The translations under genes and the position numbers were made by a program. From Escherichia phage Bp4, in the sequence record NC_024142.2: a stretch of 64,000 bases of DNA. The stretch is one strand, 5' to 3'. This document shows, piece after piece, positions 15,340 to 62,771 of the stretch; the first letter of the stretch is position 1; every line of letters starts with the position of its first letter. Under the pieces are notes generated by a model. The model was given only the letters and a program-made list of their open reading frames with translations. It was not told the DNA's origin and did no database searches.

Positions 15340-15352
15340 GGCAGACCTTCAC

Positions 15353-16937: not shown

Positions 16938-16953
16938 ACAGGAATGAGATGAT

Positions 16954-18156: not shown

Positions 18157-18174
18157 TAGTCCGAAATAAAACAA

Positions 18175-18200
18175 GGGGGACATAAGTCCCCCTCTTAATA
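18175..18200 (+). terminator. terminator hairpin after capsid gene
   Basis: GGGGGAC-ATAA-GTCCCCC then TCTTAATAAAA. Confidence 0.55.
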
Positions 18201-18223
18201 AAACTAAATGAACCACAGGAAAT

Positions 18224-18865: not shown

Positions 18866-18885
18866 CGTATAAGCTACAGTTCAAC

Positions 18886-18924
18886 ACGGCTCACTGGGGT
18901 AACTCCGTGGGCCGTTTCTTTTTG
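18886..18924 (+). terminator. intrinsic terminator
   Basis: 9-bp stem ACGGCTCAC/GTGGGCCGT followed by TTCTTTTTG. Confidence 0.55.
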
Positions 18925-18935
18925 AACCAAGAGGA

Positions 18936-19778: not shown

Positions 19779-19779
19779 T

Positions 19780-23769: not shown

Positions 23770-24029
23770 GTATTGGTGATGTAATTAAACACCAGGATGG
23801 TATGAAGTCGAATCAAGGTGCTTCACCTGTTGGTGCATTCCAGATTAACCAAGCTACTCTGAAAGACTTCGCTCCCAAAGTTCTTGGTTCAGATTGGCAA
23901 AGCCAGCCTCTTTCTCCTGAGAACCAGGATAAGATTGGTAAGGCTATCTTCGAGTCTCGTAAGAACGGTAACCTTAAAGATACTTGGGCTGCTCTGCCTA
24001 ACTCTACCCAGGTGCTTATAAGGATATGA
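23766..24029 (+). CDS. hypothetical protein, ATGA-coupled to neighbours
   Basis: ATG overlaps the upstream stop (ATGA); 87 aa. Confidence 0.4.
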   Translation: MSIGDVIKHQDGMKSNQGASPVGAFQINQATLKDFAPKVLGSDWQSQPLSPENQDKIGKAIFESRKNGNLKDTWAALPNSTQVLIRI

Positions 24030-24955: not shown

Positions 24956-27900
24956 ATGTCAACATTTGACCGTCTGGCAGGTTTCGCAGACAGCATCACT
25001 AATGCTAAGCAAGTCGATGTCTCTACTGCAACCTCTCAGAAGCAAGCTGCACAAGGGCAAAGCCCTTTCCAATTAACCCCAGAGAATGCTTACAATCTCC
25101 AGACTGGACGAGTAGGTAATCTTGGAATCGGTGCATTCGAACCAGGTTCACTTCAGGCAGATTTCACTCAAGCCTCCCCATTAGAAATCATTAATAAGTA
25201 CGGTAATGAGCAAGGTTTACAAATTCTTAATAGCCGAGCTAATGCTGCTGATGTTGTACGTCAGGACTTATCTAAACAACGTACTAACGCAGAAGCATTT
25301 GGCGATACTCTTTCTGGTGTTGGTCTTGGTGTTGCTAATACCCTTGGGGGCATTGCTGCTCTTGGTACAGGCTTGGTCAATGATAATGCCGGGGCATCCA
25401 TTGCTTCCGGTCTTGACTGGTTGAATAAAGGTGTACACAACCTACAGTCTGATGCACTGAATGCTCGTCGTAATGTAGTACAGAACCAGAACGTAATATC
25501 TGCTCAAGAGAATGAGAAACTCTATAAGCAAGATATTGCTAAAGGAGAAAGTGAACTCGTTGCTTCTCTGTCTCGTATTGGACGAGATGCCTATGATTCT
25601 GTTGCTAACACCCTGTCTAATGACATGGCTGCTACAGATGGCCTGGCTGAAGGTGTTGGTTCATTCTTTACTGGCGGTCCACTTATCCGTGGTGTATCTG
25701 CACTTGGTAAAGTAATGGTAGGTGGTGATAAAGCTGTTAAGGGTATTACCTTAGCTGCTGAATTAGGTTATCGTCCTGCACGTATTGCACAGACTGCTGG
25801 TCGTGTTGCTGCACCTGCTATAGCAATTGGTGGTATGGAAGCTGGTGGTGCATACCAACAGACTGCTAATGAAATTATGGAAATGCCATTCAGTGAACTG
25901 GCTGCTAAATCTCCTGTATACCAACAGCATATTAAAGACGGTCTGTCTCCTGAAGAAGCACGTCGCCAGACTGCATCTGAAACAGGTATCACTGCTGCTG
26001 GCTTAACTGCTCCAGTTGCTGCTCTTACTGCTCCACTGGTATCCAAGTTTGAACTTAACCCACTTAAGGTAGGTTCACTGGCTGGTGCTGGTTCTAACAT
26101 GCTGCGTGAGACTGTAGAAGAAGGTATCCAGTCTGGTACAAGTCAGTTTGCACAAAACAAGGCAATTCAGGGCAATGTAGATGCTGAGCGTGATTTGCTT
26201 AAAGGTGTGGGTGAACAAACTGGTCTGGGTGCATTGTATGGCTTCGGTTCTGCTGGAGTTGCTCAAGCTCCTGGTGCAACTGTTAAGGCTGCTGGTGCTG
26301 CCGTTGGTCCTGCTGTACGTACTACCCTGGCTGGTGCTTCTTTGGCTGGTAAGGCACTAGCAAAAGTAGCTTCACCTATTACTAACATCCTGGTTCAACG
26401 TGGGGAAGAAGTTGCTAAGCGTAATGAACAAGCATCCCCCGTATCTGATGCTACGGTTAACGCTGCTGCACAAGAAGCTACTGCTCAGGCAGAACAAGCT
26501 CAAGCAACTGTTCAGGAAGCAGTGGATGCAATGGATATTTCTCCAGAAGAGAAAGCTGCTGCTACCCAGTATGCTGCTGACTTAACTCAGGCAATGAAGT
26601 TTGACCCGGTAGAATTGGAACAAACTAACCCAGCAATCCGTGAAGCTGTTTCTGGTTCCACTAACCGTGTAGAAGCTATTCAGAAGATGGCTGACTTGGT
26701 TAATACTGCCGAAGACCCTAACGTTCAAATGGAAGCTGCAATCCAGATGTATGACAATATCATGTCTATGGATAGCTTCATTAACCGTGACCCGGGTGCT
26801 TTGGCTAATCTGGAACAAGGTTCCCCTGCTGCTGCAATCGTAGACCAATTCTCCGGCCTGATGGCTAACGTACAGAATACCCCTAAAGTACTCCGTGCAT
26901 TTCGTGCCATCCATTCCATGATTCAGGAACAGGCTGAAGCGGGTAAGCTGAAAGCTACTGAAGAAGCTAATCAAGCCCAAGCAAACAACATTGCTATGGC
27001 TGCTGATGTATCTCCAGAAGTGCTGGATGCAGATTCAGTGAACATGGTTCTGAAACATGCAAGTGAAGGTAAGATTACACTGGGGAATCGTCAACGTGCT
27101 GCCCTGCAATCTGCTGCTGCCTTATTACAGGGTGCACGAGAGTTCGACGCTAAAGCAGAAGAACTAGGCTTACGTCCTCAAGATATTGTTAGTAAACAGA
27201 TTAAAACCGATGAGTCTCGTTCTAATGAAGGACAGTACTCTGCGTTGCAACATGCGAAACGCATTCGTTCTGCGTATAACTCTGGTAACTTCGATTTGGC
27301 CTCCGCTTATCTGAGCGATTTTATGAAGTTCGCCCAGCACATGCAGAATAAGGTCGGAGCGTTGAATGAGCATCTGATTTCGGGGAATGCGGATAAGAAT
27401 AAGTCTGTTCATTATCAGGCTCTCTCGCCTTCCCGTGAATGGGTACGTAGTCGTACTGGCCTCGGTGTCAATCCTTACGATACCAAGTCTGTTAAGTTTG
27501 CCCAGCAAGTAGCACTGGAAGCTAAGACCGTAGCTGACATTGCTAACGCACTTGCTACGGCTTACCCGGAGCTTAATGTTTCTCATGTGAAAGTTACCTC
27601 GTTGGATTCACGTCTGAACAAGCCAGCTGCCCAGGTAGTTAAAGAGTTCCGTCAAGGTGGTCTTGATGCCACTCAGTCTCAACAGACTAATGAACCAGTG
27701 AATCAGGTTGATGAAACTCCTGCACTAGTGCAAGAGGACACCACTACTGTACAGCCTAAAGATAAACTAGTGGTAGAAAATAAGACTGCTCCTACTAAAG
27801 AGACTAGTCCAAAAGCAGAAGAAGTCTCTACTACTGAATCTGAAAGAGATGCTTATGTGAAAGAAAATACTATTTCACAGGAAATTCTTAATAAGAATGG

Positions 27901-30900
27901 TGACCGTAGAGAAAGCCCTTGGTTGTTTGCTGATGGTACTGTGGTTGGTTCTAATGGCGACCATATCAGCCTGTCCGACGTATTTGGGCATGATGGTTAT
28001 CGTGATATGTCTCTGGATACTGGTGCTATTCGCTCTACCTTCTATAAAGGTAGTGAGCAACCATTTGTATCTCTGCAACTGTTTGATAATCAGAAACTGA
28101 CTGCTGAACAATTCAATACTGTTCAATCTTTCGTTGAAGCAAACAATGCACTGATTCAGGTTGGTGTAGATACGTCTGGGCGTAATACCAATAATGTTGA
28201 GAAGGAAGAAGTATCACTAGCTCAACTGAAAGCAGACTATACCGTCGGTGGTAAACCTCTATCGGAAATGGAAACAGTGTTCCCTGTTTATAACAATGAC
28301 AAGACACCGAACCAGTTCATTAAATCATTCTCTCTTCCAGAAGAACCTAAGTCTCGTACCATTGGTTCCGAATCTCCTTTGACTGATGTTAAGAAAGCAC
28401 TGTCTTCTGCTGCTCGCTTTGAAGCATTTACTCAAAAAGAAAATAACGCTCTCACAAGTGATGTGATTAAGCGTTACCAGGACTTATTTGAGTTTGGTGA
28501 AACTCTGAAGACTACTCTGTCTGACCGTCTGGCTAAGTTCCTTGCTAACAAGAACGTTGGTAAACGTTTTGCGGAAGGTACTGAGGCTAACCGTTGGGTA
28601 GGTGGTAAGTTACTTAACATCGTAGAGAAAGATGGTGACACCTTTAAGTTCAATGACCAGCTATTAGAAACTGCTGTACTTGCTGGTCTGCAATGGCGAT
28701 TGACTGCTACACAGAATGCTGCTGTTAAAGACATGAAAGACGTAGCTGCTATTACTGGTGTGGAAGCATCTCTGCTACCAGAAGGTATTCTGGCTGACTT
28801 CGAGAATGCTCAGACCCTGGTTGAAGCTACTAACTCACTAGCTCAAAAGATTGAATCCTATTGGGGTTTGAATCGTAATCCTAATGCACCTTTGGGGTAT
28901 ACCAAGGGTATCCCAATGGCAATGGCTACAGAGATTCTGTCTTCCCTTATTGAGATGGGTGAAGTTAAAGAGTCCATGTTAGATGTGTCTGAGATTGACC
29001 CAGAATCTAATAAGACTGTTGGTCTGTATACCATTGAGAAGCTGGATGATAACGATGCCATTAATAAATTCCCTACTGCTATTGAGGAAACTGTCCTTTT
29101 AGAACCAGTAGAGAAATTGTATCTGGGTGATGACATTCCTTCCGTGGCTCAAACTCAGTTACGTAACCCGGCTGTTAAGAATACCCCGGAACAGAAAGCT
29201 GCTCTCAAAGCAGAACAAGCTACTGAGTTTCGTGTACATATGCCGATGGTTAATTTCTATGAAGCATTGGGTCGTGACAACATTCTGGAGTTAATGGGTG
29301 CTGGTGCTCTTAATCCAGAATTGCTGAATGTGAATACTGCTAAGTCTCTGGAAGGTAAAAACCTGTCCGTGTCCATGGCGTATGATTCCTTGTTTGGTGT
29401 AATCAATCAAATTAAGGAACAGGAGAATGGACTGGATACACCTATTCACTATGGCTACAACATGACCCGTGTAGGTCGTATGCAGATGCTTGGTAAGAAC
29501 AACCCACAGTCCAGCAAACTGGTACGTGAAGCAATCTTACCAACCTTCTCTACCATCGACTTGAGTAATGAAAACAGTCAAACGTTCTCTGACTTCCAGT
29601 TAGGTCTGGCTCAGGCATTGGGCATCAAAGTTCATAAAATGTCCCGTGAAGTTATGTCGGATGAGCTGACTAAAGCTCTGGAAGGTAAATTGAAACCTGC
29701 CGTTGATATGATGGTCGAGTTTGATAAGTCTGGTCACTTACCTGCTGATGCAGTGGATATTCTGAAGACTTCCTTGGGGAATGATAAATCATTCGTAGCT
29801 CTTATGGCCCTGATGGAATATGCCCGTTACCTGAATAGTGATGATCGTGCCAACTTTAATACCCCACTGTACGTTGAAGCCGATGGTGTAACCAATGGAC
29901 CAATTAACGCAATGGTATTAATGACTGGTGGTAAGTTTACTTCAGACTGGATTAAGAATACTGCTAAGGGTGGTTTGTTCTTTGGTAAAGCTGGCAAGAC
30001 TATGAACGAACACCATTCGCACGAGGATAGTGTTGACCTGTATGAAGCATCCACTAATAGTCTGCAACAGGCACTGAATGAATTACGTAATAATTACCGT
30101 AACAACGTTCCTGTTACGAATCAGATGAAGCATCTTCAGAAGTTAATGGACCTGTTCATTAAAGACTTCAATCTTAATGAAGATGGTACTCTGGACCTGA
30201 AACGTGGTATCGCTAAAAACCCACTGACCATTACCATCTATGGTTCTGGTGCTCGTGGTATTGCTGGCAAAATGGTAAGTGCAATTACTGATACCATCTA
30301 CGAACGCTTCAGTGACGTTCTACAAGCCCGTGCTGCTGACCCTAGCATTTCCCCAGCTATGGCTATGTTTGGTAAGGAGGCTGCGTCTGAGGCTGATGCT
30401 CAGGCTATGCTGGATACTTTCCTTACTTCTATGGAAGCACTAACTGGTAATGTTCCGGTTATGCGTAAAGGTGAGTTGTCTATTCAGCAGGTAGATGGTG
30501 CTCTGACTGGTAAGTTAGACCCTCAGAAGTTTACTGTATCCGGTAATGCTCTGAAGAACTTACAAGAGAACATGCTTCATCTGTTCGTTGAACCAATGCG
30601 TACTGGTATCCGAAATACCGTGGGTGAAGGTCTGATGTACTCTACTGAGAACTTGCAGAAAGCTACCCAGATTCAATCTCTGGTTCTGCAAGACATGTTC
30701 CAGCAACGTGTTCAGGAGAAACTGGCAGAAAAAGAAAAAGACCCAACATGGAAGAAGGGTGATTTCTTAACACAGAAAGAACTGAATGAAATCCAGGCTT
30801 CATTATCTCCACTGGCTCCAATGATTGAGACTGGTTCACAGACTTTCTACATTGCTGGTAGTGAGAATACTGATGTTGCTAACCAAGTATTGGCTACCAA

Positions 30901-33900
30901 CTTAGATGACCGTATGCGTGTGCCAATGAGCATCTATGCTCCTTCACAGGCAGGTGTAGCAGGTATTCCATTTATGACCATCGGTACAGGTGATGGCATG
31001 ATGATGCAGACCCTTTCTACTATGAAAGGTGCTCCGAAGAATACCCTGAAAATCTTTGATGGTATGAACATTGGTATTAATGACATTACTGATGCAAGCC
31101 GTAAAGCTAATGAGGCTGTATATACTTCCTGGCAGGGTAACCCTATCAAGAATGTTTATGACTCCTTTGCTAAGTTCATGAAGAACGTAGACTTCAGCAA
31201 ACTGTCTGATGAAACCAAACAAGCTATCGCTAAATCTGCACTGGAATACGACCAACGTGAGGGTGCTACTGATGACCTGTTACGTGTTGGTGCTGAACAG
31301 ATTGAACGTAATCTGCGTAACATTGCTCTGGGTGTGGATATTCGTCATAAGGTAATGGACCAGGTACAGGTCACTGTTGACCAGATGGCTGCTGTTGGTG
31401 CTCCTTATGTGAACAACGGTAAAATCTCTCTGGAAGGTCTGACTGTAGACCAGCAAGTAGCTAAGCTGAACGAACTGTTTGATGCTGAATTAAACAAGCG
31501 TCGTGATGCAGTACGTGCTGCTAAAGCAGAACCAGTGAAAGAAGTGCCAGCAATGGAACAGGTCGGTCGTGTACTGAAGTCTGGTGTACGTCTGCTGTCT
31601 AATGCTGCCATTACTAAACTGGCTAAAGAGATGTCCCCTGAACAACAAGCAGTACTGAAAGAAATACAGAAATCTCTTGCTGCTAAAGACTATAAGGTTG
31701 TTTATGGTACGCCTTCTCAACTGGATGCCTATGCTATTGAGAAGAACATTACTCGTCCAGCACCGGAAGATATTGAAGCTGCTGAAGCAGGTAATGCATA
31801 TGGCTGGACTAACTTTGAAGATAAAACCATCTACTTAGTTACCCCTTCCTTAGAGACTCTGGTTCATGAATTGGTACATGCCTCTACTTTTGAATCTGTA
31901 CTAGCTCACTACGAGGGTACTCCTAACGAAGCAGTCCAGAATATTGAAGACCTGATGAACCAGTTCCGTGCTCTTGATGTTAAGAATGAATCTCCGGCAG
32001 TACGTGAAGCATATGCCGATGCACTCAATACCATTAATGGCCACTTGTCCAATGGCTTTATTGAACCAGCAATGGCTAAAGCTGCTGCACTGAATGAGTA
32101 CATGGCTTGGGGTTTAACTAACCGTGAACTTATAAGTAAGCAGAAGAAAACCACTGCACTTAAAACTATGGTTCAGGCTGTATATGAAGCAATCAAACGT
32201 CTGGTATTCGGACGTAAGAAAGCTCCTGCTAATGCAGATGATATGTTCTCTGGCTTACTGTTTAACTCTGCTGTAGTAATGCGTGGGCAGGCTCCTACTG
32301 CTGCTGTAGCCAAAGATACTACCTTGTTCCATAACAAAGCATACGGTGACAATACTCGTCTGGAAGAGCTAGGGAAAACCTTCGATAAGCTGATTACTAA
32401 CTACATTGGTTCAGAACCAGTACAGCAAGTAATTCGTAAAGGTAAGTTCTCTGATGCAGTAGTAAAAGCAACTAAAGTAACTCGTGATGTTCAGGCTCAT
32501 GGCTTCACCATGAATATGCAGGAACAGCGTCTCTTCACTAACATTGTTGCTGCACTAGCTACTGAGGCTGCTATTAACCCTGCTGCTATGGCTCGTGCAC
32601 AGGAATACTACACGCATGTTACTAAGAACCTGACTGTTGAAGCGTTCATGGCTGACCCGGATAGTACTAACCCTGCTGACCGTTACTATGCACAGCAGAA
32701 GTTCGATACCATCATGGGTGCTAATAACATTGAGTTTGATGCACAGGGTCGTTCTTCCTTACTACCTACCTTTGTTGGTCTGGTAATGGTAAGTGAAGAA
32801 GTACGTAAGGTGCTGGCTGATATTTCTGTTATGAAAGCAGATAAAAAATCTGGCAATACTGTTGATGCAATGCTGACTAACATCGGTACTGCTGCAATGG
32901 CTAGTCTGAATGCTCGTGTAGCAGGTGATACTAAAGCCACTAACGTACAGGAAGGTATGGATGCACTGGCTCAGACAATCATGCAGACCAGTCTTAACGC
33001 AGAATCCTTCTATGATTCCGTTGCTACTCCTACCGGTAATGCTATCGACCGTGCTAACCAGTATTTGGTGGACTCTATTGATGCATTGTCTACCCGTGCT
33101 TTAGAAGGTGCTCGTGAAGTTGCAGCTAATACCAAGAATCCATTGGTCAAAGGTGCTGCTCATGCTGCACAACTGGTAGCTGCTATTGCTACAGAGAAGA
33201 ATGGTGCAATCGTAGCCGAAGGTGTTATGGCTGCAATGAACCAGGGTAAAGTATGGCAACCTTTCCATGACCTGGTTAATGACATAATTGGACGTACTAA
33301 GAGCAATGCTTCTGTATATGATTTGATTAAAGCAGTACGAGCACAAGTGCAGGCTGACCGTCAACAGTTCCGTGAACACTTGCCTACCACTATCGCATCC
33401 AAGTTCAGCCGTAAACTGACTAATGATGAGTGGAAAGCAATGCATACCGGTATGGGTAAAACTGACTTAGCTGTTCTGCGTGACACTATGTCTTTGGATG
33501 AAATCCGTGACCTGCTGACTGACCAGAAGAATGTTGACCGTGAGGTTAATAAACTGGAAGCAGATTTGCAGAAACAAGCAGGACGTAACTGGCCCCTGAT
33601 TAACCGTAAATCTAAGCAACTGGCTCAGTATATGATTAACGGTACAGTCGGTAATAACCTGCTGCGTAATGCTACTGCAATTTCTCGTTTACTGGGTGAA
33701 CGTAAGACTACACGTTCTGTTGTAGATGTAGCTCAGCTGGATAAACTGATTACCCTGTATGCACTGGAAGCAATGAGTAAGACTGACCGTGAGGTGTTAT
33801 CTTCACTGGCTCAGACAGAAGTTGAAGGCATGGACTTTGCTACTTCTTACCTGGTTGGTCAGCGTAAAGACGAAATGGCTAAAGCCAAGTCTGATAGCCG

Positions 33901-35668
33901 TGCAACCTTGAACCAGTACAAAGGATACATCCCAACTGAGAACAAACAGGGTGTTAACCTGATTGTTGCTGAAGATAATCAGTTTGCTGATTTGATTGAG
34001 AAATCCTATGTACGTCTTGGTACTTATCAGGGTAGCTCTGCTAACCGGGGTCCAGCACGTAGTTACTACTTTGCACCGGTACAGGCACAGGCTCCGTTCT
34101 CACAAGGTATCCTACAGAACGTTCGAAATACTGCTGGTGGTGTAGACCTTGGTACAGGCTTTACGATGGGAACCATGGTAGCTGGTCGTATTACTGACAA
34201 GCCTTCCGTAGACCGTATCACTAAAGCACTGGCTCGTGGTGAACGTGGCAATGAACCACTGCTGCCTGTATATGATGCTAATGGTAATGTAGTTGCTTAT
34301 GAGCAATCTATTGACCCTAACATGCTGAAGCACATTGAGGGTGAGAATCATCTTGCTCGTGCAATCGGTGTATGGCGTGGTCGTCAGGTGGAAGAAGCTA
34401 AGGCTCAGCGTTTCAACGATATGCTAATTGAGAACCTGCATAGCATGTATGAGAACGACATTAAGATGTCTGCTTCTAATAAGTCCCAGTACGTTAACCT
34501 TCTTGGTTCTAAACTGGACCCAGTAACTGCCGATGCCCTTAAGCTGATGAACAGTGAAACTCGTCAGAAAGCAGAAAGTCTCTTTGGTCCAGGTGAATTG
34601 TGGGTGCGTCGTGACATGCTTAATGATGCTCTGGGTTATCGTGCAGCTTCTGTAGGAGATGCCTGGTCTGGTAATTCTCGTTGGTCACCAGAAACACTGG
34701 ATACCTTCAAGAAAGCTATGTTGGGTGTATTCGGCAACCGTGCCTATAAGTATGTAATGGGTGGTGAGAACCTGGTTCAGAACTTAGTTAAAGAAGCTAA
34801 GACCCTGATTGTAGTTAAGTCAGTAGTTGTACCTGCTGTTAACTTCCTGGCTAACCTTTACCAGATGGTTGCTCGTGGTGTACCTGTTAAGAACATTGCT
34901 AAGAGCATCCCACAAAAAACTGCTGAGATTAACCAGTATCTGAAATCTCGTCTGCGTCAGGTAGATGCAGAAGCAGAATTACGTGCAGCTACTAACCCGA
35001 ACCAGATTCGTAAACTCAAGGCTGAGATTCAGTCCATCTCTGATAGCCATAAACGTTTGAGTATCTGGCCTCTGTTGGAAGCTGGTGAGTTCTCTTCAAT
35101 TGCAGATGCTGGTATTGGCCGTGATGACATCCTGATTACTGAAGGTAAACTCCACGAATACATGGAAAAGCTGGCTGATAAGCTGCCTAAGTCTGTTCGT
35201 AACGCAGGTCGCTATGCACTTATCACTAAGGATACTGCTCTCTTCCAGGGTATTCAGAAGACGGTTGAGTACTCTGACTTTATTGCTAAAGCAATCATCT
35301 ATGATGAACTGACTCAGCGTAAAGGTAAGACTCGTGAAGAAGCACTGGGGCGTGTAACGGAAGAGTTCATTAACTATGACCGTCTGCCTGGTCGATTCCG
35401 TGGGTATATGGAAAGTGTTGGTTTGATGTGGTTCTACAACTTTAAGATTCGTTCTGCAAAAGTTGCAGTGTCCATGATTCGTAATAACCCAGTACATGCT
35501 GCTATGGCTATGTTGGCTCCAACCCCTACCATGTTTGGTAACGTTGGTCTTCCTATTCAGGACAACATCTTTAGTATTGCTGCACAAGGCAATCTTGGTT
35601 ACTCCTTTGGTTTCGGTCAAGGCTTACGTGCCCACAACCTGAACCCTTGGCTCAACCTTACTAACTAA
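24956..35668 (+). CDS. giant virion-encapsidated RNA polymerase (N4 vRNAP-like)
   Basis: Single uninterrupted ~3570-aa ORF in the virion module; size and position are diagnostic of N4-like phages; ATG at 24956 with RBS AGGAAAC. Confidence 0.8.
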   Translation: MSTFDRLAGFADSITNAKQVDVSTATSQKQAAQGQSPFQLTPENAYNLQTGRVGNLGIGAFEPGSLQADFTQASPLEIINKYGNEQGLQILNSRANAADVVRQDLSKQRTNAEAFGDTLSGVGLGVANTLGGIAALGTGLVNDNAGASIASGLDWLNKGVHNLQSDALNARRNVVQNQNVISAQENEKLYKQDIAKGESELVASLSRIGRDAYDSVANTLSNDMAATDGLAEGVGSFFTGGPLIRGVSALGKVMVGGDKAVKGITLAAELGYRPARIAQTAGRVAAPAIAIGGMEAGGAYQQTANEIMEMPFSELAAKSPVYQQHIKDGLSPEEARRQTASETGITAAGLTAPVAALTAPLVSKFELNPLKVGSLAGAGSNMLRETVEEGIQSGTSQFAQNKAIQGNVDAERDLLKGVGEQTGLGALYGFGSAGVAQAPGATVKAAGAAVGPAVRTTLAGASLAGKALAKVASPITNILVQRGEEVAKRNEQASPVSDATVNAAAQEATAQAEQAQATVQEAVDAMDISPEEKAAATQYAADLTQAMKFDPVELEQTNPAIREAVSGSTNRVEAIQKMADLVNTAEDPNVQMEAAIQMYDNIMSMDSFINRDPGALANLEQGSPAAAIVDQFSGLMANVQNTPKVLRAFRAIHSMIQEQAEAGKLKATEEANQAQANNIAMAADVSPEVLDADSVNMVLKHASEGKITLGNRQRAALQSAAALLQGAREFDAKAEELGLRPQDIVSKQIKTDESRSNEGQYSALQHAKRIRSAYNSGNFDLASAYLSDFMKFAQHMQNKVGALNEHLISGNADKNKSVHYQALSPSREWVRSRTGLGVNPYDTKSVKFAQQVALEAKTVADIANALATAYPELNVSHVKVTSLDSRLNKPAAQVVKEFRQGGLDATQSQQTNEPVNQVDETPALVQEDTTTVQPKDKLVVENKTAPTKETSPKAEEVSTTESERDAYVKENTISQEILNKNGDRRESPWLFADGTVVGSNGDHISLSDVFGHDGYRDMSLDTGAIRSTFYKGSEQPFVSLQLFDNQKLTAEQFNTVQSFVEANNALIQVGVDTSGRNTNNVEKEEVSLAQLKADYTVGGKPLSEMETVFPVYNNDKTPNQFIKSFSLPEEPKSRTIGSESPLTDVKKALSSAARFEAFTQKENNALTSDVIKRYQDLFEFGETLKTTLSDRLAKFLANKNVGKRFAEGTEANRWVGGKLLNIVEKDGDTFKFNDQLLETAVLAGLQWRLTATQNAAVKDMKDVAAITGVEASLLPEGILADFENAQTLVEATNSLAQKIESYWGLNRNPNAPLGYTKGIPMAMATEILSSLIEMGEVKESMLDVSEIDPESNKTVGLYTIEKLDDNDAINKFPTAIEETVLLEPVEKLYLGDDIPSVAQTQLRNPAVKNTPEQKAALKAEQATEFRVHMPMVNFYEALGRDNILELMGAGALNPELLNVNTAKSLEGKNLSVSMAYDSLFGVINQIKEQENGLDTPIHYGYNMTRVGRMQMLGKNNPQSSKLVREAILPTFSTIDLSNENSQTFSDFQLGLAQALGIKVHKMSREVMSDELTKALEGKLKPAVDMMVEFDKSGHLPADAVDILKTSLGNDKSFVALMALMEYARYLNSDDRANFNTPLYVEADGVTNGPINAMVLMTGGKFTSDWIKNTAKGGLFFGKAGKTMNEHHSHEDSVDLYEASTNSLQQALNELRNNYRNNVPVTNQMKHLQKLMDLFIKDFNLNEDGTLDLKRGIAKNPLTITIYGSGARGIAGKMVSAITDTIYERFSDVLQARAADPSISPAMAMFGKEAASEADAQAMLDTFLTSMEALTGNVPVMRKGELSIQQVDGALTGKLDPQKFTVSGNALKNLQENMLHLFVEPMRTGIRNTVGEGLMYSTENLQKATQIQSLVLQDMFQQRVQEKLAEKEKDPTWKKGDFLTQKELNEIQASLSPLAPMIETGSQTFYIAGSENTDVANQVLATNLDDRMRVPMSIYAPSQAGVAGIPFMTIGTGDGMMMQTLSTMKGAPKNTLKIFDGMNIGINDITDASRKANEAVYTSWQGNPIKNVYDSFAKFMKNVDFSKLSDETKQAIAKSALEYDQREGATDDLLRVGAEQIERNLRNIALGVDIRHKVMDQVQVTVDQMAAVGAPYVNNGKISLEGLTVDQQVAKLNELFDAELNKRRDAVRAAKAEPVKEVPAMEQVGRVLKSGVRLLSNAAITKLAKEMSPEQQAVLKEIQKSLAAKDYKVVYGTPSQLDAYAIEKNITRPAPEDIEAAEAGNAYGWTNFEDKTIYLVTPSLETLVHELVHASTFESVLAHYEGTPNEAVQNIEDLMNQFRALDVKNESPAVREAYADALNTINGHLSNGFIEPAMAKAAALNEYMAWGLTNRELISKQKKTTALKTMVQAVYEAIKRLVFGRKKAPANADDMFSGLLFNSAVVMRGQAPTAAVAKDTTLFHNKAYGDNTRLEELGKTFDKLITNYIGSEPVQQVIRKGKFSDAVVKATKVTRDVQAHGFTMNMQEQRLFTNIVAALATEAAINPAAMARAQEYYTHVTKNLTVEAFMADPDSTNPADRYYAQQKFDTIMGANNIEFDAQGRSSLLPTFVGLVMVSEEVRKVLADISVMKADKKSGNTVDAMLTNIGTAAMASLNARVAGDTKATNVQEGMDALAQTIMQTSLNAESFYDSVATPTGNAIDRANQYLVDSIDALSTRALEGAREVAANTKNPLVKGAAHAAQLVAAIATEKNGAIVAEGVMAAMNQGKVWQPFHDLVNDIIGRTKSNASVYDLIKAVRAQVQADRQQFREHLPTTIASKFSRKLTNDEWKAMHTGMGKTDLAVLRDTMSLDEIRDLLTDQKNVDREVNKLEADLQKQAGRNWPLINRKSKQLAQYMINGTVGNNLLRNATAISRLLGERKTTRSVVDVAQLDKLITLYALEAMSKTDREVLSSLAQTEVEGMDFATSYLVGQRKDEMAKAKSDSRATLNQYKGYIPTENKQGVNLIVAEDNQFADLIEKSYVRLGTYQGSSANRGPARSYYFAPVQAQAPFSQGILQNVRNTAGGVDLGTGFTMGTMVAGRITDKPSVDRITKALARGERGNEPLLPVYDANGNVVAYEQSIDPNMLKHIEGENHLARAIGVWRGRQVEEAKAQRFNDMLIENLHSMYENDIKMSASNKSQYVNLLGSKLDPVTADALKLMNSETRQKAESLFGPGELWVRRDMLNDALGYRAASVGDAWSGNSRWSPETLDTFKKAMLGVFGNRAYKYVMGGENLVQNLVKEAKTLIVVKSVVVPAVNFLANLYQMVARGVPVKNIAKSIPQKTAEINQYLKSRLRQVDAEAELRAATNPNQIRKLKAEIQSISDSHKRLSIWPLLEAGEFSSIADAGIGRDDILITEGKLHEYMEKLADKLPKSVRNAGRYALITKDTALFQGIQKTVEYSDFIAKAIIYDELTQRKGKTREEALGRVTEEFINYDRLPGRFRGYMESVGLMWFYNFKIRSAKVAVSMIRNNPVHAAMAMLAPTPTMFGNVGLPIQDNIFSIAAQGNLGYSFGFGQGLRAHNLNPWLNLTN

Positions 35669-43846: not shown

Positions 43847-44823
43847 GATGGAAAATATCTCTCTCTTTGTTTGCAAATGGACGCGACAGGGCAGTATAGA
43901 CAACGCTTAACCTGCCCCTCCACGACCTTGATAGCACCCTTGCCACCTTTTTCAGCCATGAAGATACGAGCAGATGCCATATCGTCAAATTTTTTGGTAC
44001 TTCTGGCTCCAGGTACATCTACCTTAGAAGCATCAGAGAAGTATTTGAACTGTGGCTCTGTTCGCCACAACTCCTCATCAGTACATTCAGGAATTTCCTC
44101 TTCTGGTGCATTCCAGTACTTCTCAATGAGGTGAATCTTCTCTTCTACCCAACGTTCAGTCTTCTCAACAGATAGCAACGGAATATCCTTATGCATAATA
44201 CGATTAGCAGGATAGTTTGGATTGCTATTAGCCATATGCTTCATGAAGTCAGTGAAGATGTAGTTAATACGGATTACATCCTCGGTAATGATGTCGTTGT
44301 GAATCCAACGGTACAAGCTGCCTTGCATCTTGTGTTCATCATCACGGGAACCAGCAACCCAGGAATAGGTTGAGGTAGACTTAAAGTCCTGCAACAGACC
44401 TTCTGTTACGATGTCGAACTTACCACCGATAGTCCAACCCTTAACTACCCTGGTTCCACGCTGTTCAATGTAGATTGGGATAAGGTCAGGGTTAGCATCA
44501 AAGTCTGCTTTGGTTGGGTTAATAACTACTGCATCAATTACTCGTTGAGGATAACCCAACTTCTTCAATGCAGTCTTATGACCCAGCTTCCAGGCTTTCT
44601 CGATAGAATCATGTAAACCAGTACCCATTGATGTGGAGACGAAATCCATAACATCAATTGACTGATCACTTAAATCTACACGATGCTTCATGACGATTTG
44701 CTTAATGGGCTTAAGCAATGTGGTAACAGACAGATACTTAGGGTTATCTACATAGTCATAATCATCCGTTACAAGCCATACAGCTAGTGCAAGACTAACG
44801 TCGTGTTTGTTGGTAAGTTTCAT
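43843..44823 (-). CDS. PD-(D/E)xK family nuclease with C-terminal Cys cluster
   Basis: GKFDIVTEGLLQDFK (D…E…K arrangement) and C-terminal CLYCPVASIC. Confidence 0.45.
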   Translation of the reverse strand: MKLTNKHDVSLALAVWLVTDDYDYVDNPKYLSVTTLLKPIKQIVMKHRVDLSDQSIDVMDFVSTSMGTGLHDSIEKAWKLGHKTALKKLGYPQRVIDAVVINPTKADFDANPDLIPIYIEQRGTRVVKGWTIGGKFDIVTEGLLQDFKSTSTYSWVAGSRDDEHKMQGSLYRWIHNDIITEDVIRINYIFTDFMKHMANSNPNYPANRIMHKDIPLLSVEKTERWVEEKIHLIEKYWNAPEEEIPECTDEELWRTEPQFKYFSDASKVDVPGARSTKKFDDMASARIFMAEKGGKGAIKVVEGQVKRCLYCPVASICKQRERYFPS

Positions 44824-45317
44824 AACAGTCCCAATTGCTTATTAGTTTTAGCAAACTCACCATAATGAGTTATAGCAGCTTCATCATAGAGAACAGCAGC
44901 TTCTCTTGGGTCATCTGTAAAACCTAATGTAATTGGTTTACTGTTAACCCAAATAGTTGCTCTGTATTTACCTAAATTCTTTGAAAAGGATACCCCCTTA
45001 AATCCAGATGTGTTTGTTTTAGATAAAACAGCACTCTGGTTATTCTGCTTGTGGGTCGCTTCTCTGAGGTTATCTATCCAGTTGTGATGGCGAATATTGT
45101 CCTTATGGTCAATCCTATCCGTAGGCCATACACCGTGCACATAGAACCATGCAAGGATATGCCCATAGTACAACACACTATCTACACGGAGTTGAACGTA
45201 ACCACTCTTCATTAGGTAACCAGATACCTTTCCGGTATTCCTACGAGTAAAAATCCCGGAAATAGGGTCATAACTAACAAGCTGTAAAAGCCTGTCATGG
45301 GCAATCCTCTGTTTCAT
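44820..45317 (-). CDS. HNH homing endonuclease with AP2 DNA-binding domain
   Basis: HNH core RIDHKDNIRHHNWIDNLREATHKQNN, then AP2-like SGFKGVSFSKNLGKYRATIWVNSKPITLGFTDD. Confidence 0.8.
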   Translation of the reverse strand: MKQRIAHDRLLQLVSYDPISGIFTRRNTGKVSGYLMKSGYVQLRVDSVLYYGHILAWFYVHGVWPTDRIDHKDNIRHHNWIDNLREATHKQNNQSAVLSKTNTSGFKGVSFSKNLGKYRATIWVNSKPITLGFTDDPREAAVLYDEAAITHYGEFAKTNKQLGLL

Positions 45318-59555: not shown

Positions 59556-60062
59556 TTATTTACTGCTTCTTGCAGCTACTGGTTTGTTTTCCTGGTTCTG
59601 ATACTTGCCATTGTAATTAGCAGGTTCCTGAACCAGATGAAATAATACTTGAGCTATCCCAGAACCAGCCGGGATATGCAGTTTCTTACGACCGTGATAG
59701 ACAAGTTCGAGGGTAAGATACCCTTTCCATCCTGGTTCTATTACGGTATTGAACACAGATAATGCACGTCTTGCCCAGGTAGACTTATCGTGAACGATGG
59801 CTACACAGGAAGGAGACATGTTGAACTTCTCAATTGCTGAAGCCAATGTGAACTTACCGAGATGGCGTGATACTTGATTTCCATCAACGACTTTCACCAT
59901 TGGAATCAACCCAAATAAGCGATAGAAGGTAATATCTTGTTTGATACGAATATCATAACCAGCTTCACCCAATCCATAGCTTACACCATGCTCGGATACC
60001 TTACGGTCTGGGACATCCAGCAACTGAGATGAACGATAAAGAGAATTACCATTAACAACCAT
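59556..60062 (-). CDS. dcd: dCTP deaminase (Dcd/dUTPase superfamily)
   Basis: GYDIRI and STWARRALSVFNTVIEPGWKGYLTLELVYHG … AQVLF parallel E. coli Dcd motifs. Confidence 0.7.
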   Translation of the reverse strand: MVVNGNSLYRSSQLLDVPDRKVSEHGVSYGLGEAGYDIRIKQDITFYRLFGLIPMVKVVDGNQVSRHLGKFTLASAIEKFNMSPSCVAIVHDKSTWARRALSVFNTVIEPGWKGYLTLELVYHGRKKLHIPAGSGIAQVLFHLVQEPANYNGKYQNQENKPVAARSSK

Positions 60063-60580
60063 TATTTCATTCCTTTAGGGATATGAACTACCTCCCCAAA
60101 AGGTACGGTAGCATTAGGATTATTCAGAACACACCAGATGATAGGAATATCAAATGGTAATTCTTTCATTGGGCGAACATACATATCGGAGAATATGATT
60201 GCAGCGGTTGGCTTATTCTTAATAATCCAATCACGTACTGGTTCAAGGCTTGTACCACCACGACCAGTAATCTTAATCTCTTCAAAAGTATCTTCTTCAG
60301 TGATGTCTATTTCTTCCTGGATAATATCGTCGAAGGTAATTAGTGACATCTTCTTAGGATTGAACTGACTTTTAACGTAGGCGACTTCTGAGTTAAAACG
60401 CAGAGAGTCAGCACTACTAATAGAACCAGATACATCCTCAAAGTAGGCTAAGTGACGTAGACGTCCTTCATCATCTTCTAAGGAAGGTAGATAGATGTCA
60501 GTGTAACGACGGTTGGGTCTGGCCCACGTATAATGTGTGTCATCAATGTCGGTAAAAAGTTCATCAGAACTTCCTGCCAT
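60062..60580 (-). CDS. vWA-domain protein, C-terminal segment
   Basis: MIDAS-like DVSGSIS…TGRGGTS; upstream part of the gene lies in other frames. Confidence 0.55.
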   Translation of the reverse strand: MAGSSDELFTDIDDTHYTWARPNRRYTDIYLPSLEDDEGRLRHLAYFEDVSGSISSADSLRFNSEVAYVKSQFNPKKMSLITFDDIIQEEIDITEEDTFEEIKITGRGGTSLEPVRDWIIKNKPTAAIIFSDMYVRPMKELPFDIPIIWCVLNNPNATVPFGEVVHIPKGMK

Positions 60581-60675
60581 GGAACCACTGGTTTAAGGAA
60601 TTGGGTAATAACCTCTTCCATACGACCAGCACCTTTACCAGGCATCTGTCCACCAGCCATTTTCTGGCTCTGCAT
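60478..60675 (-). CDS. vWA-domain protein, middle segment (frame-shifted)
   Basis: Frame open upstream: HFGQSQGAVVNNVVRAMQSQKMAGGQMPGKGAGRMEEVITQF. Confidence 0.45.
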   Translation of the reverse strand: MQSQKMAGGQMPGKGAGRMEEVITQFLKPVVPWQEVLMNFLPTLMTHIIRGPDPTVVTLTSIYLP

Positions 60676-61234
60676 TGCACGTACTACGTTGTTGACAACA
60701 GCACCCTGGGACTGCCCGAAGTGGGGATTTCATGTCGCCAGCAAGACCTGCTCCAGCACCCCCTGACGGCTTCTGCCTTTTCTGAGGGTTCTTCATCAGG
60801 TCATCGTAGATGTCTTCTTCGACCCATCCTTTATATTGAGGGTCTTTGCAAATGCCTTCATCAATGCCAGTGAACTTGTAACCATCTTCTTCTAACTGAA
60901 GGTTAATGAAGTGGTCACAAGCCTGGTTCCAGACTTCTGGGTCACGGCTTCCACGTCGGATGTCGTGTAGATATGCCACATGCCATAATTCATGCATAAG
61001 CACTGTTTCTCTTACATCTGGACACATCCAGATAAAGAAATCTGGGTTGAAATGGAGTTCTATCCCATCAGTACATGCAGTGGGACAATCCTCACGTTTC
61101 CATGAGAATTTAAGACTACACAGTAATGAACCAAAGAAGGCTGCGCTGCGACCTAAAAAAGCCTGCGCTTGGATTCTATCGTACTCCCTCATTAGCTGCT
61201 CATCTGTGAGACTATGCGTAGGTATACTGTTCAT
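60635..61234 (-). CDS. vWA-domain protein, N-terminal metallopeptidase-like segment
   Basis: HELWHVAYLH motif; C-terminal ~30 residues Cys-rich out-of-frame; removing one C from the CCCC run (plus GGGG 60723-60726) restores the frame. Confidence 0.55.
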   Translation of the reverse strand: MNSIPTHSLTDEQLMREYDRIQAQAFLGRSAAFFGSLLCSLKFSWKREDCPTACTDGIELHFNPDFFIWMCPDVRETVLMHELWHVAYLHDIRRGSRDPEVWNQACDHFINLQLEEDGYKFTGIDEGICKDPQYKGWVEEDIYDDLMKNPQKRQKPSGGAGAGLAGDMKSPLRAVPGCCCQQRSTCNAEPENGWWTDAW

Positions 61235-61566
61235 TAGGGTGCTCCATGATTGGGGTGATAGCCATACAGTTTTTCAGCCGCTTTTCTGGCGTCTATGGCA
61301 TCTTGCTTGTCTGCAAAAGTGCCCAAACTTACCAGACGTGTTCCATCAGATATAGCTGCATACCAGATGGAATCACGCTTGTGCCAGTACACACCAGTAA
61401 CACCACTGGAATTAGTTACCCGTTTCTTTTGGTTTCTGGTGTTAGTTCTGCTGTCTACTAATCTAAAGTTACTTAGAAGGTTATTAACCCTATTGTGGTC
61501 TAGGTGATCAATCTGCATACCTTTCGGGATAGGTCCATTGTGCATTTCCCATATGACACGGTGCAC
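61234..61566 (-). CDS. HNH homing endonuclease with AP2 domain (annotated ORF is the 3' two-thirds; gene likely 61234..61713)
   Basis: IDHLDHNRVNN HNH core and SGVTGVYWHKRDSIWYAAISDG AP2-like; the N-terminus (MNWNDILVYINGELFW) lies in another frame, rejoined by adding one T to the T5 run at 61628-61632. Confidence 0.75.
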   Translation of the reverse strand: MHRVIWEMHNGPIPKGMQIDHLDHNRVNNLLSNFRLVDSRTNTRNQKKRVTNSSGVTGVYWHKRDSIWYAAISDGTRLVSLGTFADKQDAIDARKAAEKLYGYHPNHGAP

Positions 61567-61719
61567 TTTGTAACTTTTGCCCTTATAGTTGAAGCATAAA
61601 TAACCATCGCTATTTAGATTACCTACCTTTTTCCAGCAATGCCTCTGGAGGCTACTGTAACTTTCCAGAATAGCTCCCCATTTATGTAAACGAGTATGTC
61701 ATTCCAGTTCATGTTGTGA

Positions 61720-62220
61720 TTACCCGTGAATGTAGCGAGAGATATTAGCAGCAGCCTTACGCCATTCAGGGGTAGCCTGAAGATCTGGTAATGCATTGCC
61801 TACTGTACGGAAGTACAGAATCTTATGGGTGAACGTTTTAAAGCGTTCAATATACTGAAGAACATCAGCAAAGTTTTCTTCAGTAGTTTTGTTAGCCAGA
61901 TGGTTAACGGTAGCCCAACACAGGTTGTTATCTTCTGGTAGTGCACAACCCATAGGGTCTTTGACTACTTTTTCAATCGTAATGATACGATTGTATACCT
62001 GAGTGAACTGAACAAACTCTGTAGCCTTACCAGCAGTAACGTGACCTGAATAGTAGATAGAATCTTCATCAGGAAGAGCACCTTCTGGTAAGTTCTTGAG
62101 GTCTTTATTAACAAAGTCCCAAGTACGAGGGCAACAGAACGTTTTGTTCTTATGTGCTGGGTCGAAGTCATGCAGATAACCAGGGTTAGCATGTAAGAAT
62201 GCAACCAGACGTTCATCCAT
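61720..62220 (-). CDS. MoxR-like AAA+ ATPase, C-terminal segment
   Basis: In-frame continuation of the upstream ATPase after a 1-nt frameshift near 62225-62245. Confidence 0.55.
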   Translation of the reverse strand: MDERLVAFLHANPGYLHDFDPAHKNKTFCCPRTWDFVNKDLKNLPEGALPDEDSIYYSGHVTAGKATEFVQFTQVYNRIITIEKVVKDPMGCALPEDNNLCWATVNHLANKTTEENFADVLQYIERFKTFTHKILYFRTVGNALPDLQATPEWRKAAANISRYIHG

Positions 62221-62771
62221 TGCTGAGGAATCATTACATCTTCAACAAAGATGTCGAAGTTAAGTTCCATTTCAAAGTGAACCACACGAGACTGCATTGC
62301 AGTACCCAGTGGGTTAACAATGGCACGGTCAGTAGCTTTGTTACCAGCACAGACAATCATCACATTAGGATGAAGTTTTTTCTGACCAGTCATACGGTCT
62401 AGAATCAGTTTATATGCAGCAGCTACTACTTCTTTCTTAGCTGAGTTGAACTCATCAAGGAATAAGAGCCAGCCATTATACCCTTCTGGTAATTCATCTC
62501 CCTCAATTGGGAATAAGTCAGCGAATGGAATAAACTCTGCACGGTCACCATTACGGAATGGTAAGCCAGAAAGGTCTTCCGGGGCAGAAGTTGACAGACG
62601 ATGGTCTATCAACTTCATACCAAATTCTTCTGCAATAGAACGAATGATTGCAGATTTACCCATGCCAGGTGATGAAGTCAGGAACGGTACGTTACCTGCT
62701 TTCAAAGCACGGATAATAAAGTTACGAGCTTGACGTGAATTACATACGGTCAAGGAGTCAATGCTTGCCAT
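61965..62771 (-). CDS. MoxR-like AAA+ ATPase, N-terminal segment
   Basis: Walker A SSPGMGKS, Walker B LLFLDEFNSA; last ~80 residues are out-of-frame read-through. Confidence 0.65.
   Translation of the reverse strand: MASIDSLTVCNSRQARNFIIRALKAGNVPFLTSSPGMGKSAIIRSIAEEFGMKLIDHRLSTSAPEDLSGLPFRNGDRAEFIPFADLFPIEGDELPEGYNGWLLFLDEFNSAKKEVVAAAYKLILDRMTGQKKLHPNVMIVCAGNKATDRAIVNPLGTAMQSRVVHFEMELNFDIFVEDVMIPQQWMNVWLHSYMLTLVICMTSTQHIRTKRSVALVLGTLLIKTSRTYQKVLFLMKILSTIQVTLLLVRLQSLFSSLRYTIVSLRLKK

What the first reader, a model, noticed from the sequence alone, without database searches (positions are those of the whole stretch)
61234..61713. Second HNH-AP2 homing endonuclease with a poly-T frameshift at 61628..61632
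The annotated ORF begins with GTG and lacks the usual N-terminal region. That region (MNWNDILVYINGELFW) is present upstream in another frame and joins when the T5 run is read as T6 (…GIAGKKVGNLNSDGYLCFNYKGKSYKVHRVIW…). So the endonuclease is probably intact and ~160 aa, sitting between the MoxR and vWA genes.
Basis: seen in the sequence. Interest (0 to 1): 0.45.

Follow-up and report, generated by a model that had tools for sequence, protein, structure and literature searches.

The report
Homing endonuclease gene split by likely sequencing error
This is an ordinary, already catalogued selfish "homing endonuclease" gene in an N4-like coliphage, and the one-base frameshift that splits it is most likely one of 36 homopolymer miscalls in this assembly, although the same broken allele also occurs in an independent metagenome.

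Summary
On the minus strand an ATG at 61712 opens 29 codons (MNWNDILVYINGELFWKVTVASRGIAGKR*). These join the 61234..61627 frame if the run at 61628..61632 is T6 instead of T5. The repaired 159-aa protein is identical to AXY81310.1 of phage PD38. It has an I-HmuI-like HNH nuclease domain and a C-terminal AP2 fold. It sits in the 7-nt spacer between N4-type gp24 (AAA ATPase) and gp25 (VWA-like), where phage G7C annotates HNH gp24.1.

The window is a Gamaleyavirus of the Bp4 species. Over 64 kb it differs from PD38 by 3 substitutions and 36 single-base deletions, with no insertions. Almost all deletions lie in homopolymers, and 8 of 23 six-base runs are contracted. They break DNA polymerase, primase, rIIA, tail fibre, gp24 and gp25. 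The T5 is therefore most likely an assembly artefact (about 80%).

One caveat remains. An independent Illumina metagenome contig carries the same T5, and a clean 71-kb contig carries T7, so frameshifted alleles of this gene do exist in nature (about 15% that T5 is real here). I found no signal for a programmed frameshift. Overall this is a known kind of element and of low interest.

The parts
61234..61712 (-). Free-standing HNH + AP2 homing-endonuclease gene. It is 479 nt here and 480 nt (159 aa) when the run is T6. It corresponds to PD38 AXY81310.1 and occupies the same position as G7C gp24.1.
61623..61712 (-). N-terminal fragment: 29 codons, MNWNDILVYINGELFWKVTVASRGIAGKR, followed by TAG at 61625-61623.
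   Evidence: homology to the G7C gp24.1 N-terminus; consensus of 60 homologues
61628..61632 (.). T5 homopolymer (A5 on the coding strand), the frameshift point. It is T6 in PD38 and four other independent assemblies, T5 in metagenome contig L017, and T7 in contig L022.
61234..61627 (-). C-terminal part in the second frame. It carries the HNH core (H70, N82, N94 in full-length numbering) and the AP2-like beta-beta-beta-alpha domain (residues 103-151). The GTG-started 110-aa ORF 61234..61566 and the 103-aa ORF annotated in Bp4 and Uz-1 lie within it.
61713..61719 (-). 7-nt spacer (TCACAAC) between the gp24 stop (TAA 61722-61720) and the endonuclease ATG. In genomes without the endonuclease, the same spacer precedes the gp25 ATG.
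61229..61234 (-). The ATGAAC that starts gp25. The same hexamer starts the endonuclease gene at 61707-61712, so the insert is bounded by a 6-nt direct repeat. The endonuclease stop TAA (61236-61234) overlaps the gp25 ATG (TAATG).
61169..61228 (-). Tract within the first 66 nt of gp25 that is recoded in every endonuclease-bearing genome examined, with 22 differences that are mostly synonymous. It is the likely protected or co-converted target region (inferred).
61720..62771 (-). gp24 AAA ATPase, 350 aa in PD38. Here it is split into ORFs 61965..62771 and 61720..62220 by a C3-to-C2 contraction at about 62216-62218.
60062..61234 (-). gp25 (DUF2201_N + VWA-like DUF2201), 391 aa in PD38. Here it is split into three frames by contractions at about 60722 (G5 to G4), 60717 (C4 to C3) and 60558 (A6 to A5).
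44820..45317 (-). Paralogous intact HNH_3 + weak AP2 endonuclease gene, 165 aa and 28% identical.

Best explanation
The region holds a free-standing homing-endonuclease gene. It encodes an I-HmuI-like HNH nuclease with an N-terminal beta-sheet subdomain and a C-terminal AP2 DNA-binding domain. The gene is inserted precisely in the 7-nt spacer between N4-type gp24 and gp25 of a Bp4-species Gamaleyavirus. It takes over the former gp25 start context (ATGAAC) and hands translation on to gp25 through a TAATG overlap. By analogy with characterised phage homing endonucleases, it probably cuts or nicks the gp24/gp25 junction or the gp25 5' end of co-infecting relatives that lack it, and is then copied in by repair. 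Carrier genomes are probably protected by the recoded first 66 nt of gp25 (inferred, not tested). The split into two frames at T5 is most probably not biological. It is one of 36 homopolymer under-calls in this assembly, the true run is T6, and the protein is the intact 159-aa PD38 AXY81310.1.
For: Gene identity:
- The repaired ORF equals the PD38 protein.
- Pfam HNH_3 matches at E 1.4e-17 and AP2 at E 7.8e-5.
- The best PDB sequence hit is I-HmuI 1U3E, E 7e-7.
- The AlphaFold2 model has mean pLDDT 87.9. Foldseek puts I-HmuI on top (E 1.5e-4), followed by AP2/ERF domains 1gcc, 7et4 and 7wq5 at probability 0.98-1.0.
- H70, N82 and N94 are invariant in 60 homologues.

Mobility:
- The gene is present in 10 of the 40 listed related records and absent, with a 7-nt spacer, in most others.
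- Two divergent alleles (58% aa identity) sit at the identical site.
- All 13 endonuclease-bearing sequences share a recoded gp25 5' tract that all 5 endonuclease-free genomes lack.

Artefact:
- The window differs from PD38 over 64 kb by 3 substitutions, 36 deletions and 0 insertions.
- The contraction rate rises steeply with run length: 0.5% for 3-mers, 2.4% for 4-mers, 4.3% for 5-mers, 35% (8 of 23) for 6-mers, and 5 of 9 for T6 runs.
- The deletions break DNA polymerase (3 sites), primase, rIIA (2 sites), tail fibre, virion proteins, gp24 and gp25. A plaque-forming phage could not carry these.
- All three genes are intact in PD38 and in independent contigs L019-L021.
- The exact intact 159-aa protein or variants at 90% identity or more occur on about 20 contigs.
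Against: - An independent de novo contig carries the same A5. L017 comes from ERR1950668, Ugandan cattle faeces, sequenced on Illumina HiSeq X according to PMC11044882. Its endonuclease gene is 479/479 identical to the window, but its gp25 background differs by 8%.
- A clean 70.9-kb contig (L022) carries A7, with gp24 and gp25 intact.
- The Moonfish copy has a 31-nt internal deletion.
- So natural decay of this gene, and slippage at exactly this run, do occur, and T5 could be genuine in this phage.
- No reads were available.
- Endonuclease activity, the target site and homing were not tested for this protein.
Confidence: 0.8

Rival explanations
1. The T5 run is real. This phage carries a decaying, frameshift-inactivated copy of the homing endonuclease gene, the usual fate of such genes once they are fixed in a lineage. 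The loss came from replication slippage at the A6 run. The loss would be neutral because gp25 has its own GGAG Shine-Dalgarno sequence 7 nt before its ATG.
For: - A5 occurs in the independent Illumina contig L017.
- A7 occurs in the otherwise clean contig L022.
- The Moonfish copy carries a 31-nt deletion.
- A frameshift-split HNH-AP2 endonuclease is also described in ICP1 phages (PMC10448857).
- GGAG lies upstream of the gp25 ATG.
Against: - The assembly's error profile alone predicts contraction of about 35-55% of 6-base runs.
- The nearest relative, 3 substitutions away in 64 kb, has T6.
- Only 1 of about 24 independent contigs of this allele has A5.
- A rough Bayesian estimate from these numbers gives about 10-15%.
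- The T5 in Uz-1 is not independent evidence, because that record is indel-for-indel colinear with the window.
Confidence: 0.15
2. The T5 allele is expressed through recoding. This could be a -1 P-site slip of tRNA-Lys on A_AAA_AGG (rare AGG followed by a UAG stop) or RNA-polymerase slippage on the A run. Either would yield low levels of full-length endonuclease, so the run would act as a dosage or contingency switch.
For: - The sequence context permits it: GGA AAA AGG TAG, where a -1 re-pairing AAA to AAA is perfect and the new A-site codon is AAG (mechanism from general knowledge of hungry-codon frameshifting).
- A5, A6 and A7 alleles all occur in public assemblies.
Against: - The A run is absent from alleles that are 88-96% identical (P0002 GGK, P0003 GGR, P0004 GDR) and from the G7C-type genes.
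- There is no stimulatory RNA structure downstream (z = -0.21).
- Most natural copies are simply in frame.
- A +1 allele (A7) would need the opposite shift.
Confidence: 0.03

Closest known systems
G7C gp24.1 (YP_004782150.1) and PD38 AXY81310.1, the HNH endonucleases between gp24 and gp25 of Gamaleyavirus phages
   Same: The insertion point is the same and the 6-nt ATGAAC borders are the same, as is the TAATG overlap with gp25. The PD38 protein is identical once the run is T6. G7C gp24.1 is 58% identical over its full length.
   Different: Here the ORF is interrupted at a T5 run. The G7C-type allele has no homopolymer at that position.
I-HmuI (PDB 1U3E), the HNH homing (nicking) endonuclease of Bacillus phage SPO1
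   Same: It is the best sequence hit (E 7e-7) and the best fold hit (E 1.5e-4, 94 columns, 30% identity). The match covers the N-terminal subdomain and the beta-beta-alpha-metal core.
   Different: I-HmuI is encoded inside a group I intron and has a helix-turn-helix type C-terminal DNA-binding region (established knowledge). This gene is free-standing and intergenic, and it has an AP2 domain instead.
HNH-AP2 homing endonucleases of phages, cyanobacteria and protists (Magnani et al. 2004, PMC520932, as cited in PMC10448857)
   Same: The architecture is an N-terminal HNH followed by a C-terminal AP2 DNA-binding domain.
   Different: The Pfam AP2 score (23.3 bits) is below the curated cut-off (33.3 bits), so AP2 is supported here mainly by the predicted fold. 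No biochemical data exist for this protein.
T4 free-standing homing endonucleases (Seg and Mob proteins, for example SegG and MobE) and 'intronless homing'
   Same: The gene is intergenic, patchily distributed among close relatives, and flanked by a tract of clustered silent differences in the neighbouring gene.
   Different: Seg proteins are GIY-YIG enzymes. MobE is an HNH enzyme but lacks AP2. Homing has not been demonstrated for the present gene.

Membership tests
HNH (His-Me finger) endonuclease, Pfam HNH_3 / I-HmuI-like | Significant match to the HNH_3 profile above the curated cut-off | tested here: met
   PF13392 matches at E 1.4e-17 with 63.5 bits against a cut-off of 24.8, over residues 48-93.
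HNH (His-Me finger) endonuclease, Pfam HNH_3 / I-HmuI-like | Conserved catalytic and structural His...Asn...Asn residues on a beta-beta-alpha core | tested here: met
   H70, N82 and N94 are invariant in 60 homologues. The model shows strands 66-70 and 83-87 and helix 88-92. The fold matches 1u3e.
HNH (His-Me finger) endonuclease, Pfam HNH_3 / I-HmuI-like | Metal-dependent DNA cleavage or nicking activity | not testable with these tools
   This needs purified protein and a substrate.
HNH-AP2 homing endonucleases | C-terminal AP2 DNA-binding domain (three-stranded sheet plus helix) | tested here: met
   The Pfam AP2 hit is sub-threshold (E 7.8e-5, 23.3 bits against 33.3). The AlphaFold2 model has strands at 108-111, 116-123 and 126-133 and a helix at 136-150. 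Foldseek hits AtERF1, TEM1, WRINKLED1 and Plasmodium AP2 domains at probability 0.84-1.0.
Homing endonuclease gene (mobile, selfish) | Presence/absence polymorphism at one precise site among close relatives | tested here: met
   The site is occupied in 10 of the 40 listed records. In IME11, U1G, PhAPEC7, St11Ph5, ECBP1 and others it is empty, with only the 7-nt spacer.
Homing endonuclease gene (mobile, selfish) | Flanking co-conversion or target-immunity tract linked to presence of the gene | tested here: met
   There are 22 differences in the first 66 nt of gp25, mostly synonymous. They are shared by all 13 endonuclease-bearing sequences and absent from all 5 endonuclease-free genomes. This is correlative evidence only.
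Homing endonuclease gene (mobile, selfish) | Cleavage of the empty allele and super-Mendelian inheritance in co-infection | not testable with these tools
   This needs in vitro cleavage mapping and mixed-infection crosses.
Programmed ribosomal frameshift site | Slippery sequence conserved among homologues, with a stimulatory element | tested here: not met
   The run is absent in alleles that are 88-96% identical and in the G7C type. Downstream RNA folds no better than shuffled sequence (z = -0.21).

The most novel reading that the evidence does not exclude
The A run near the 5' end of this homing-endonuclease gene is a natural contingency tract. A5, A6 and A7 alleles all circulate, and off-frame alleles persist and spread into different phage backgrounds. 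The A5 allele, for example, is 100% identical in two gp25 backgrounds that differ by 8%. Persistence would be explained either by low-level ribosomal or transcriptional slippage at A_AAA_AGG that still supplies enough nuclease, or by mobilisation in trans by intact copies.
Probability: 0.05. Interest if true: 0.45.

Novelty: already known. Interest (0 to 1): 0.12.

Why it matters
It matters mainly for annotation quality. This genome, apparently phage Bp4, the exemplar of its species, carries about 36 homopolymer under-calls. These fragment at least 13 genes, including DNA polymerase, primase, gp24, gp25 and this endonuclease. The same errors appear to have been passed on to a second GenBank record, Uz-1. 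Biologically, the locus is a tidy but conventional example of a free-standing HNH-AP2 homing endonuclease. It has a precise insertion site, a recoded flanking tract, and naturally occurring decay alleles at one homopolymer.

Tried and rejected
- **Pattern scans.** I scanned for the run with both lengths (GCATTGCTGGAAAAAN{0,1}GGTAGGTAATCT) in IMG/VR viral contigs and in JGI metagenome contigs. Both gave 0 hits, so the allele census rests on Logan, ENA and NCBI contigs only.\n- **Exact-protein look-ups.** The 110-aa GTG-started ORF and the 57-aa upstream ORF are not on record.\n- **Bp4 records.** Fetching KJ135004 and NC_024142 failed because they are not in the 'phages' collection. That the window is Bp4 is therefore inferred. 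The grounds are the shared 103-aa protein accessions and colinearity with Uz-1.\n- **Uz-1 as independent confirmation of T5.** I rejected this. Uz-1 has 0 indels but 3822 substitutions against the window over 64 kb, and it shares every homopolymer deletion checked. Its announcement reports use of the Genome Detective tool.\n- **Programmed frameshift.** I rejected this because the run is not conserved and no RNA structure follows it.\n- **PD38 as the erroneous sequence.** I rejected this because G7C and independent contigs agree with PD38 at the indel sites, and the genes are intact only with the PD38 lengths.

Full report
**1. What is in the sequence**

All coordinates below refer to the minus strand as the coding strand.
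- The gp24 ORF ends with TAA at 61722-61720.
- After a 7-nt spacer (TCACAAC), an ATG at 61712-61710 opens MNWNDILVYINGELFWKVTVASRGIAGKR. This frame stops at TAG 61625-61623.
- A second frame is open from 61698 down to TAA 61236-61234.
- The two frames overlap at GCTGG-AAAAA-GGTAGG. This is the T5 run at 61628..61632 on the + strand.
- One extra base fuses the frames into a 159-aa ORF.

The gene start is 61712, not 61713.

**2. What the gene is**

- The fused protein is identical to AXY81310.1 of Escherichia phage PD38.
- It is 58% identical over its whole length, including the N-terminal 47 residues, to gp24.1 of phage G7C. That protein is annotated as an HNH endonuclease at the same position.
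- Pfam gives HNH_3 at residues 48-93 (E 1.4e-17, above the cut-off). It also gives a sub-threshold AP2 match at 103-151 (E 7.8e-5, 23.3 bits against a cut-off of 33.3).
- The best solved relative by sequence is the SPO1 homing endonuclease I-HmuI (1U3E, E 7e-7).
- An AlphaFold2 model built on 60 homologues has mean pLDDT 87.9. The N-terminal 50 residues score 91-95. The C-terminal part has a beta-beta-beta-alpha unit.
- Foldseek against the PDB ranks I-HmuI first (E 1.5e-4). It then lists AP2/ERF domains: AtERF1 1gcc, TEM1 7et4 and WRINKLED1 7wq5, at probability 0.98-1.0.
- H70, N82 and N94 are invariant in the family.

'HNH-AP2' is a described architecture of homing endonucleases in phages, cyanobacteria and protists (Magnani et al. 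2004, as cited in PMC10448857).

The truncated 103-aa and 110-aa ORFs would keep the HNH core and the AP2 domain. They would lose four N-terminal strands that belong to the fold.

The paralogue at 44820..45317 has the same domain pattern and is 28% identical.

**3. Genomic setting and mobility**

The window is a Gamaleyavirus (N4-like, Schitoviridae).
- In endonuclease-free relatives (IME11, U1G, PhAPEC7, St11Ph5, ECBP1), the gp24 stop is followed by a few bases (7 nt in IME11, U1G, PhAPEC7 and St11Ph5) and then ATGAAC-CAG, the start of gp25.
- In occupied genomes, the same spacer is followed by ATGAAC-TGG, the endonuclease start. The gene ends ...CCCTA-ATGAAC-AGT.
- The insert is therefore bounded by a 6-nt repeat. 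The endonuclease uses the former gp25 initiation context, and gp25 restarts on a TAATG overlap with its own GGAG upstream.
- Judging by the span of the matched region, 10 of the 40 listed related records are occupied.
- Two allele types (Bp4/PD38 type and G7C type) sit at exactly the same point.

The first 66 nt of gp25 carry 22 differences between occupied and empty genomes, and most are synonymous. For example, ATG AGG GAG TAC GAT AGA ATC and ATG CGT GAG TAT GAC CGT ATT both encode MREYDRI. All 13 occupied sequences share one version and all 5 empty genomes share the other.

This is the pattern expected of a free-standing homing endonuclease with a protected or co-converted target next to its insertion point. 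Cleavage and homing themselves are inferred, not shown.

**4. Is the T5 real?**

The window aligns end to end with PD38. The differences are 3 substitutions, 36 single-base gaps that are all deletions in the window, and no insertions. The probability that a PD38 run is contracted rises steeply with its length:

| Run length in PD38 | Contracted in the window |
|---|---|
| 3 bases | 0.5% |
| 4 bases | 2.4% |
| 5 bases | 4.3% |
| 6 bases | 35% (8 of 23) |
| T6 on the + strand | 5 of 9 |
| 8 bases (one run) | shortened by 2 |

This is a typical signature of homopolymer under-calling.

Twenty-four of the deletions fall in PD38 coding regions. The genes hit are:
- DNA polymerase (3 sites)
- primase
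- rIIA (2 sites)
- tail fibre
- two large virion proteins
- thymidylate synthase end
- the Imm-like gene
- gp24 (1 site)
- gp25 (3 sites)
- the endonuclease

In PD38 and in independent contigs L019-L021, gp24 (350 aa), the endonuclease (159 aa) and gp25 (391 aa) are all intact. At the local indel sites G7C agrees with PD38. A viable phage cannot carry three frameshifts in its DNA polymerase. The simplest reading is that T5 is one more miscall.

**5. The caveat**

- The 103-aa truncated product (P0006) is the protein annotated in phage Bp4 (AHN83416.1, YP_009032030.1) and in Uz-1 (UWJ04357.1).
- It is also encoded on a 918-bp ENA contig, L017.
- L017 comes from run ERR1950668 of PRJEB20456. PMC11044882 describes this run as Ugandan cattle faeces sequenced on Illumina HiSeq X.
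- L017 has A5. Its endonuclease gene is 479/479 identical to the window. Its gp25 differs at 17 of about 200 positions beyond nt 143, so it comes from a different phage.
- A Logan contig of 70.9 kb (L022, ERR1301374) has A7 at the same run. Its gp24 and gp25 are intact, and there are no other frameshifting indels in those genes.
- The Moonfish copy has a 31-nt internal deletion.

Off-frame alleles of this gene therefore exist in nature, as expected for the decay phase of a homing endonuclease gene. The run is a mutational hot spot.

I weighed two quantities: the roughly 1-in-24 natural frequency of A5 and the 35-55% error rate for 6-base runs in this assembly. My estimates are:
- about 80% that the true run is T6
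- about 15% that T5 is genuine
- under 5% for any programmed recoding

**6. Programmed frameshift considered**

With A5 the mRNA reads GGA AAA AGG UAG. A -1 slip of tRNA-Lys (AAA to AAA) would put AAG in the A site and restore the frame. The rare AGG codon and the following stop could favour this (general knowledge of hungry-codon frameshifting).

Several results argue against it:
- The run is not conserved in alleles that are 88-96% identical (GGK, GGR, GDR) or in the G7C type.
- The downstream RNA folds no better than shuffled sequence (z = -0.21).
- Most copies are simply in frame.
- The A7 allele would need the opposite shift.

**7. Provenance of the window**

The window has the same coordinates and ORF boundaries as Uz-1 (OP312987.1). 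It differs from that record by 3822 substitutions and no indels over 64 kb. There are no differences at all in 6001-10000 or in the endonuclease gene.

The Bp4 records are absent from the searchable collection. The Uz-1 announcement reports MiSeq data processed with the Genome Detective tool and SPAdes, gives a length of 72,583 bp, and names Bp4 as the closest relative.

I infer that the window is Bp4. I also infer that the Uz-1 record was built in Bp4 coordinates and inherited Bp4's indels, and possibly its sequence where Uz-1 reads did not align. For that reason I did not count Uz-1's T5 as independent evidence.

**8. Verdict**

This is a real, conventional and already annotated HNH-AP2 free-standing homing endonuclease gene. 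The frameshift is most likely an assembly artefact, with a modest chance of being a natural decay allele. Novelty: already known. Interest: low.

Noticed in passing
window 1-64000 (sites listed): There are 36 single-base deletions relative to PD38, no insertions and only 3 substitutions. Almost all deletions lie in homopolymers and the rate depends on run length. They fragment DNA polymerase (46735, 47113, 48662), primase (43607), rIIA (53887, 55317), tail fibre (7419), virion proteins (20881; 23557-24009, five bases) and others.
   Followed up: yes
window 24956-35668 and 8446-20880: The deletions are unevenly spread. The 10.7-kb virion RNA polymerase gene has none (4.1 expected). The tail-spike to capsid block has at most one (6.2 expected). 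This suggests coverage differences or manual correction of recognisable genes.
   Followed up: partly
window 1-64000 versus OP312987.1 (L006, L007): The Uz-1 GenBank record is colinear with the window base for base: 0 indels and 3822 substitutions, with none in 6001-10000 or in the endonuclease gene. It shares the homopolymer deletions. It looks like a consensus built in the coordinates of this genome. At the gp25 5' end, Uz-1 switches from window-like to empty-site-like sequence 33 nt after the ATG, so the real Uz-1 phage may lack the endonuclease gene.
   Followed up: partly
window 61720-62771 and 60062-61234: Both neighbours of the endonuclease gene are also split. gp24 ATPase is broken at about 62216-62218 (C3 to C2). 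gp25 is broken at about 60722, 60717 and 60558. With the PD38 run lengths they are intact at 350 aa and 391 aa.
   Followed up: yes
L022 3001-3020 (Logan ERR1301374) and L017 138-160 (ENA ERZ928961): The same homopolymer occurs as A7 in a clean 70.9-kb contig and as A5 in an Illumina metagenome contig. The run is therefore a natural slippage hot spot in this gene.
   Followed up: yes
L009 (Shigella phage Moonfish) 1533-1886: The Moonfish copy of the endonuclease gene (80% nt identity) has a 31-nt deletion inside the AP2 part that creates a stop. It is annotated as 117 aa and is a degenerate copy.
   Followed up: partly
L011 (phage U1G) 1445-3379; also pSb-1 and PW8: A different HNH endonuclease gene, noted in the record as a 'Phage intron', sits inside the gp24 ATPase gene and splits it in two. 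The gp24-gp25 region is a hot spot for endonuclease insertions. L012 and L013 also show a NUMOD4 + HNH_3 gene upstream.
   Followed up: no
L023 63-1238, L010 263-1438, L009 263-1201: gp25 is labelled 'HNH endonuclease' in several RefSeq or Pharokka-type annotations (St11Ph5, Mimir124 phrog:1314, Moonfish_47). Pfam shows DUF2201_N (putative metallopeptidase) plus the VWA-like DUF2201 domain and no HNH. This looks like a propagated mis-annotation.
   Followed up: partly
L001 2501-2738 / L018 3480-3716 (PD38): PD38 annotates gp25 from an internal start (312 aa), leaving 237 nt unannotated. The full 391-aa ORF is open from the TAATG overlap.
   Followed up: yes
PD38 and other intact alleles, equivalent to window 61625-61634: In the intact A6 allele the run forms A_AAA_AAG in the zero frame, the dnaX-type -1 slippery heptamer. 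A -1 shift there would terminate two codons later. The heptamer is not conserved in related alleles, so it is probably incidental.
   Followed up: partly
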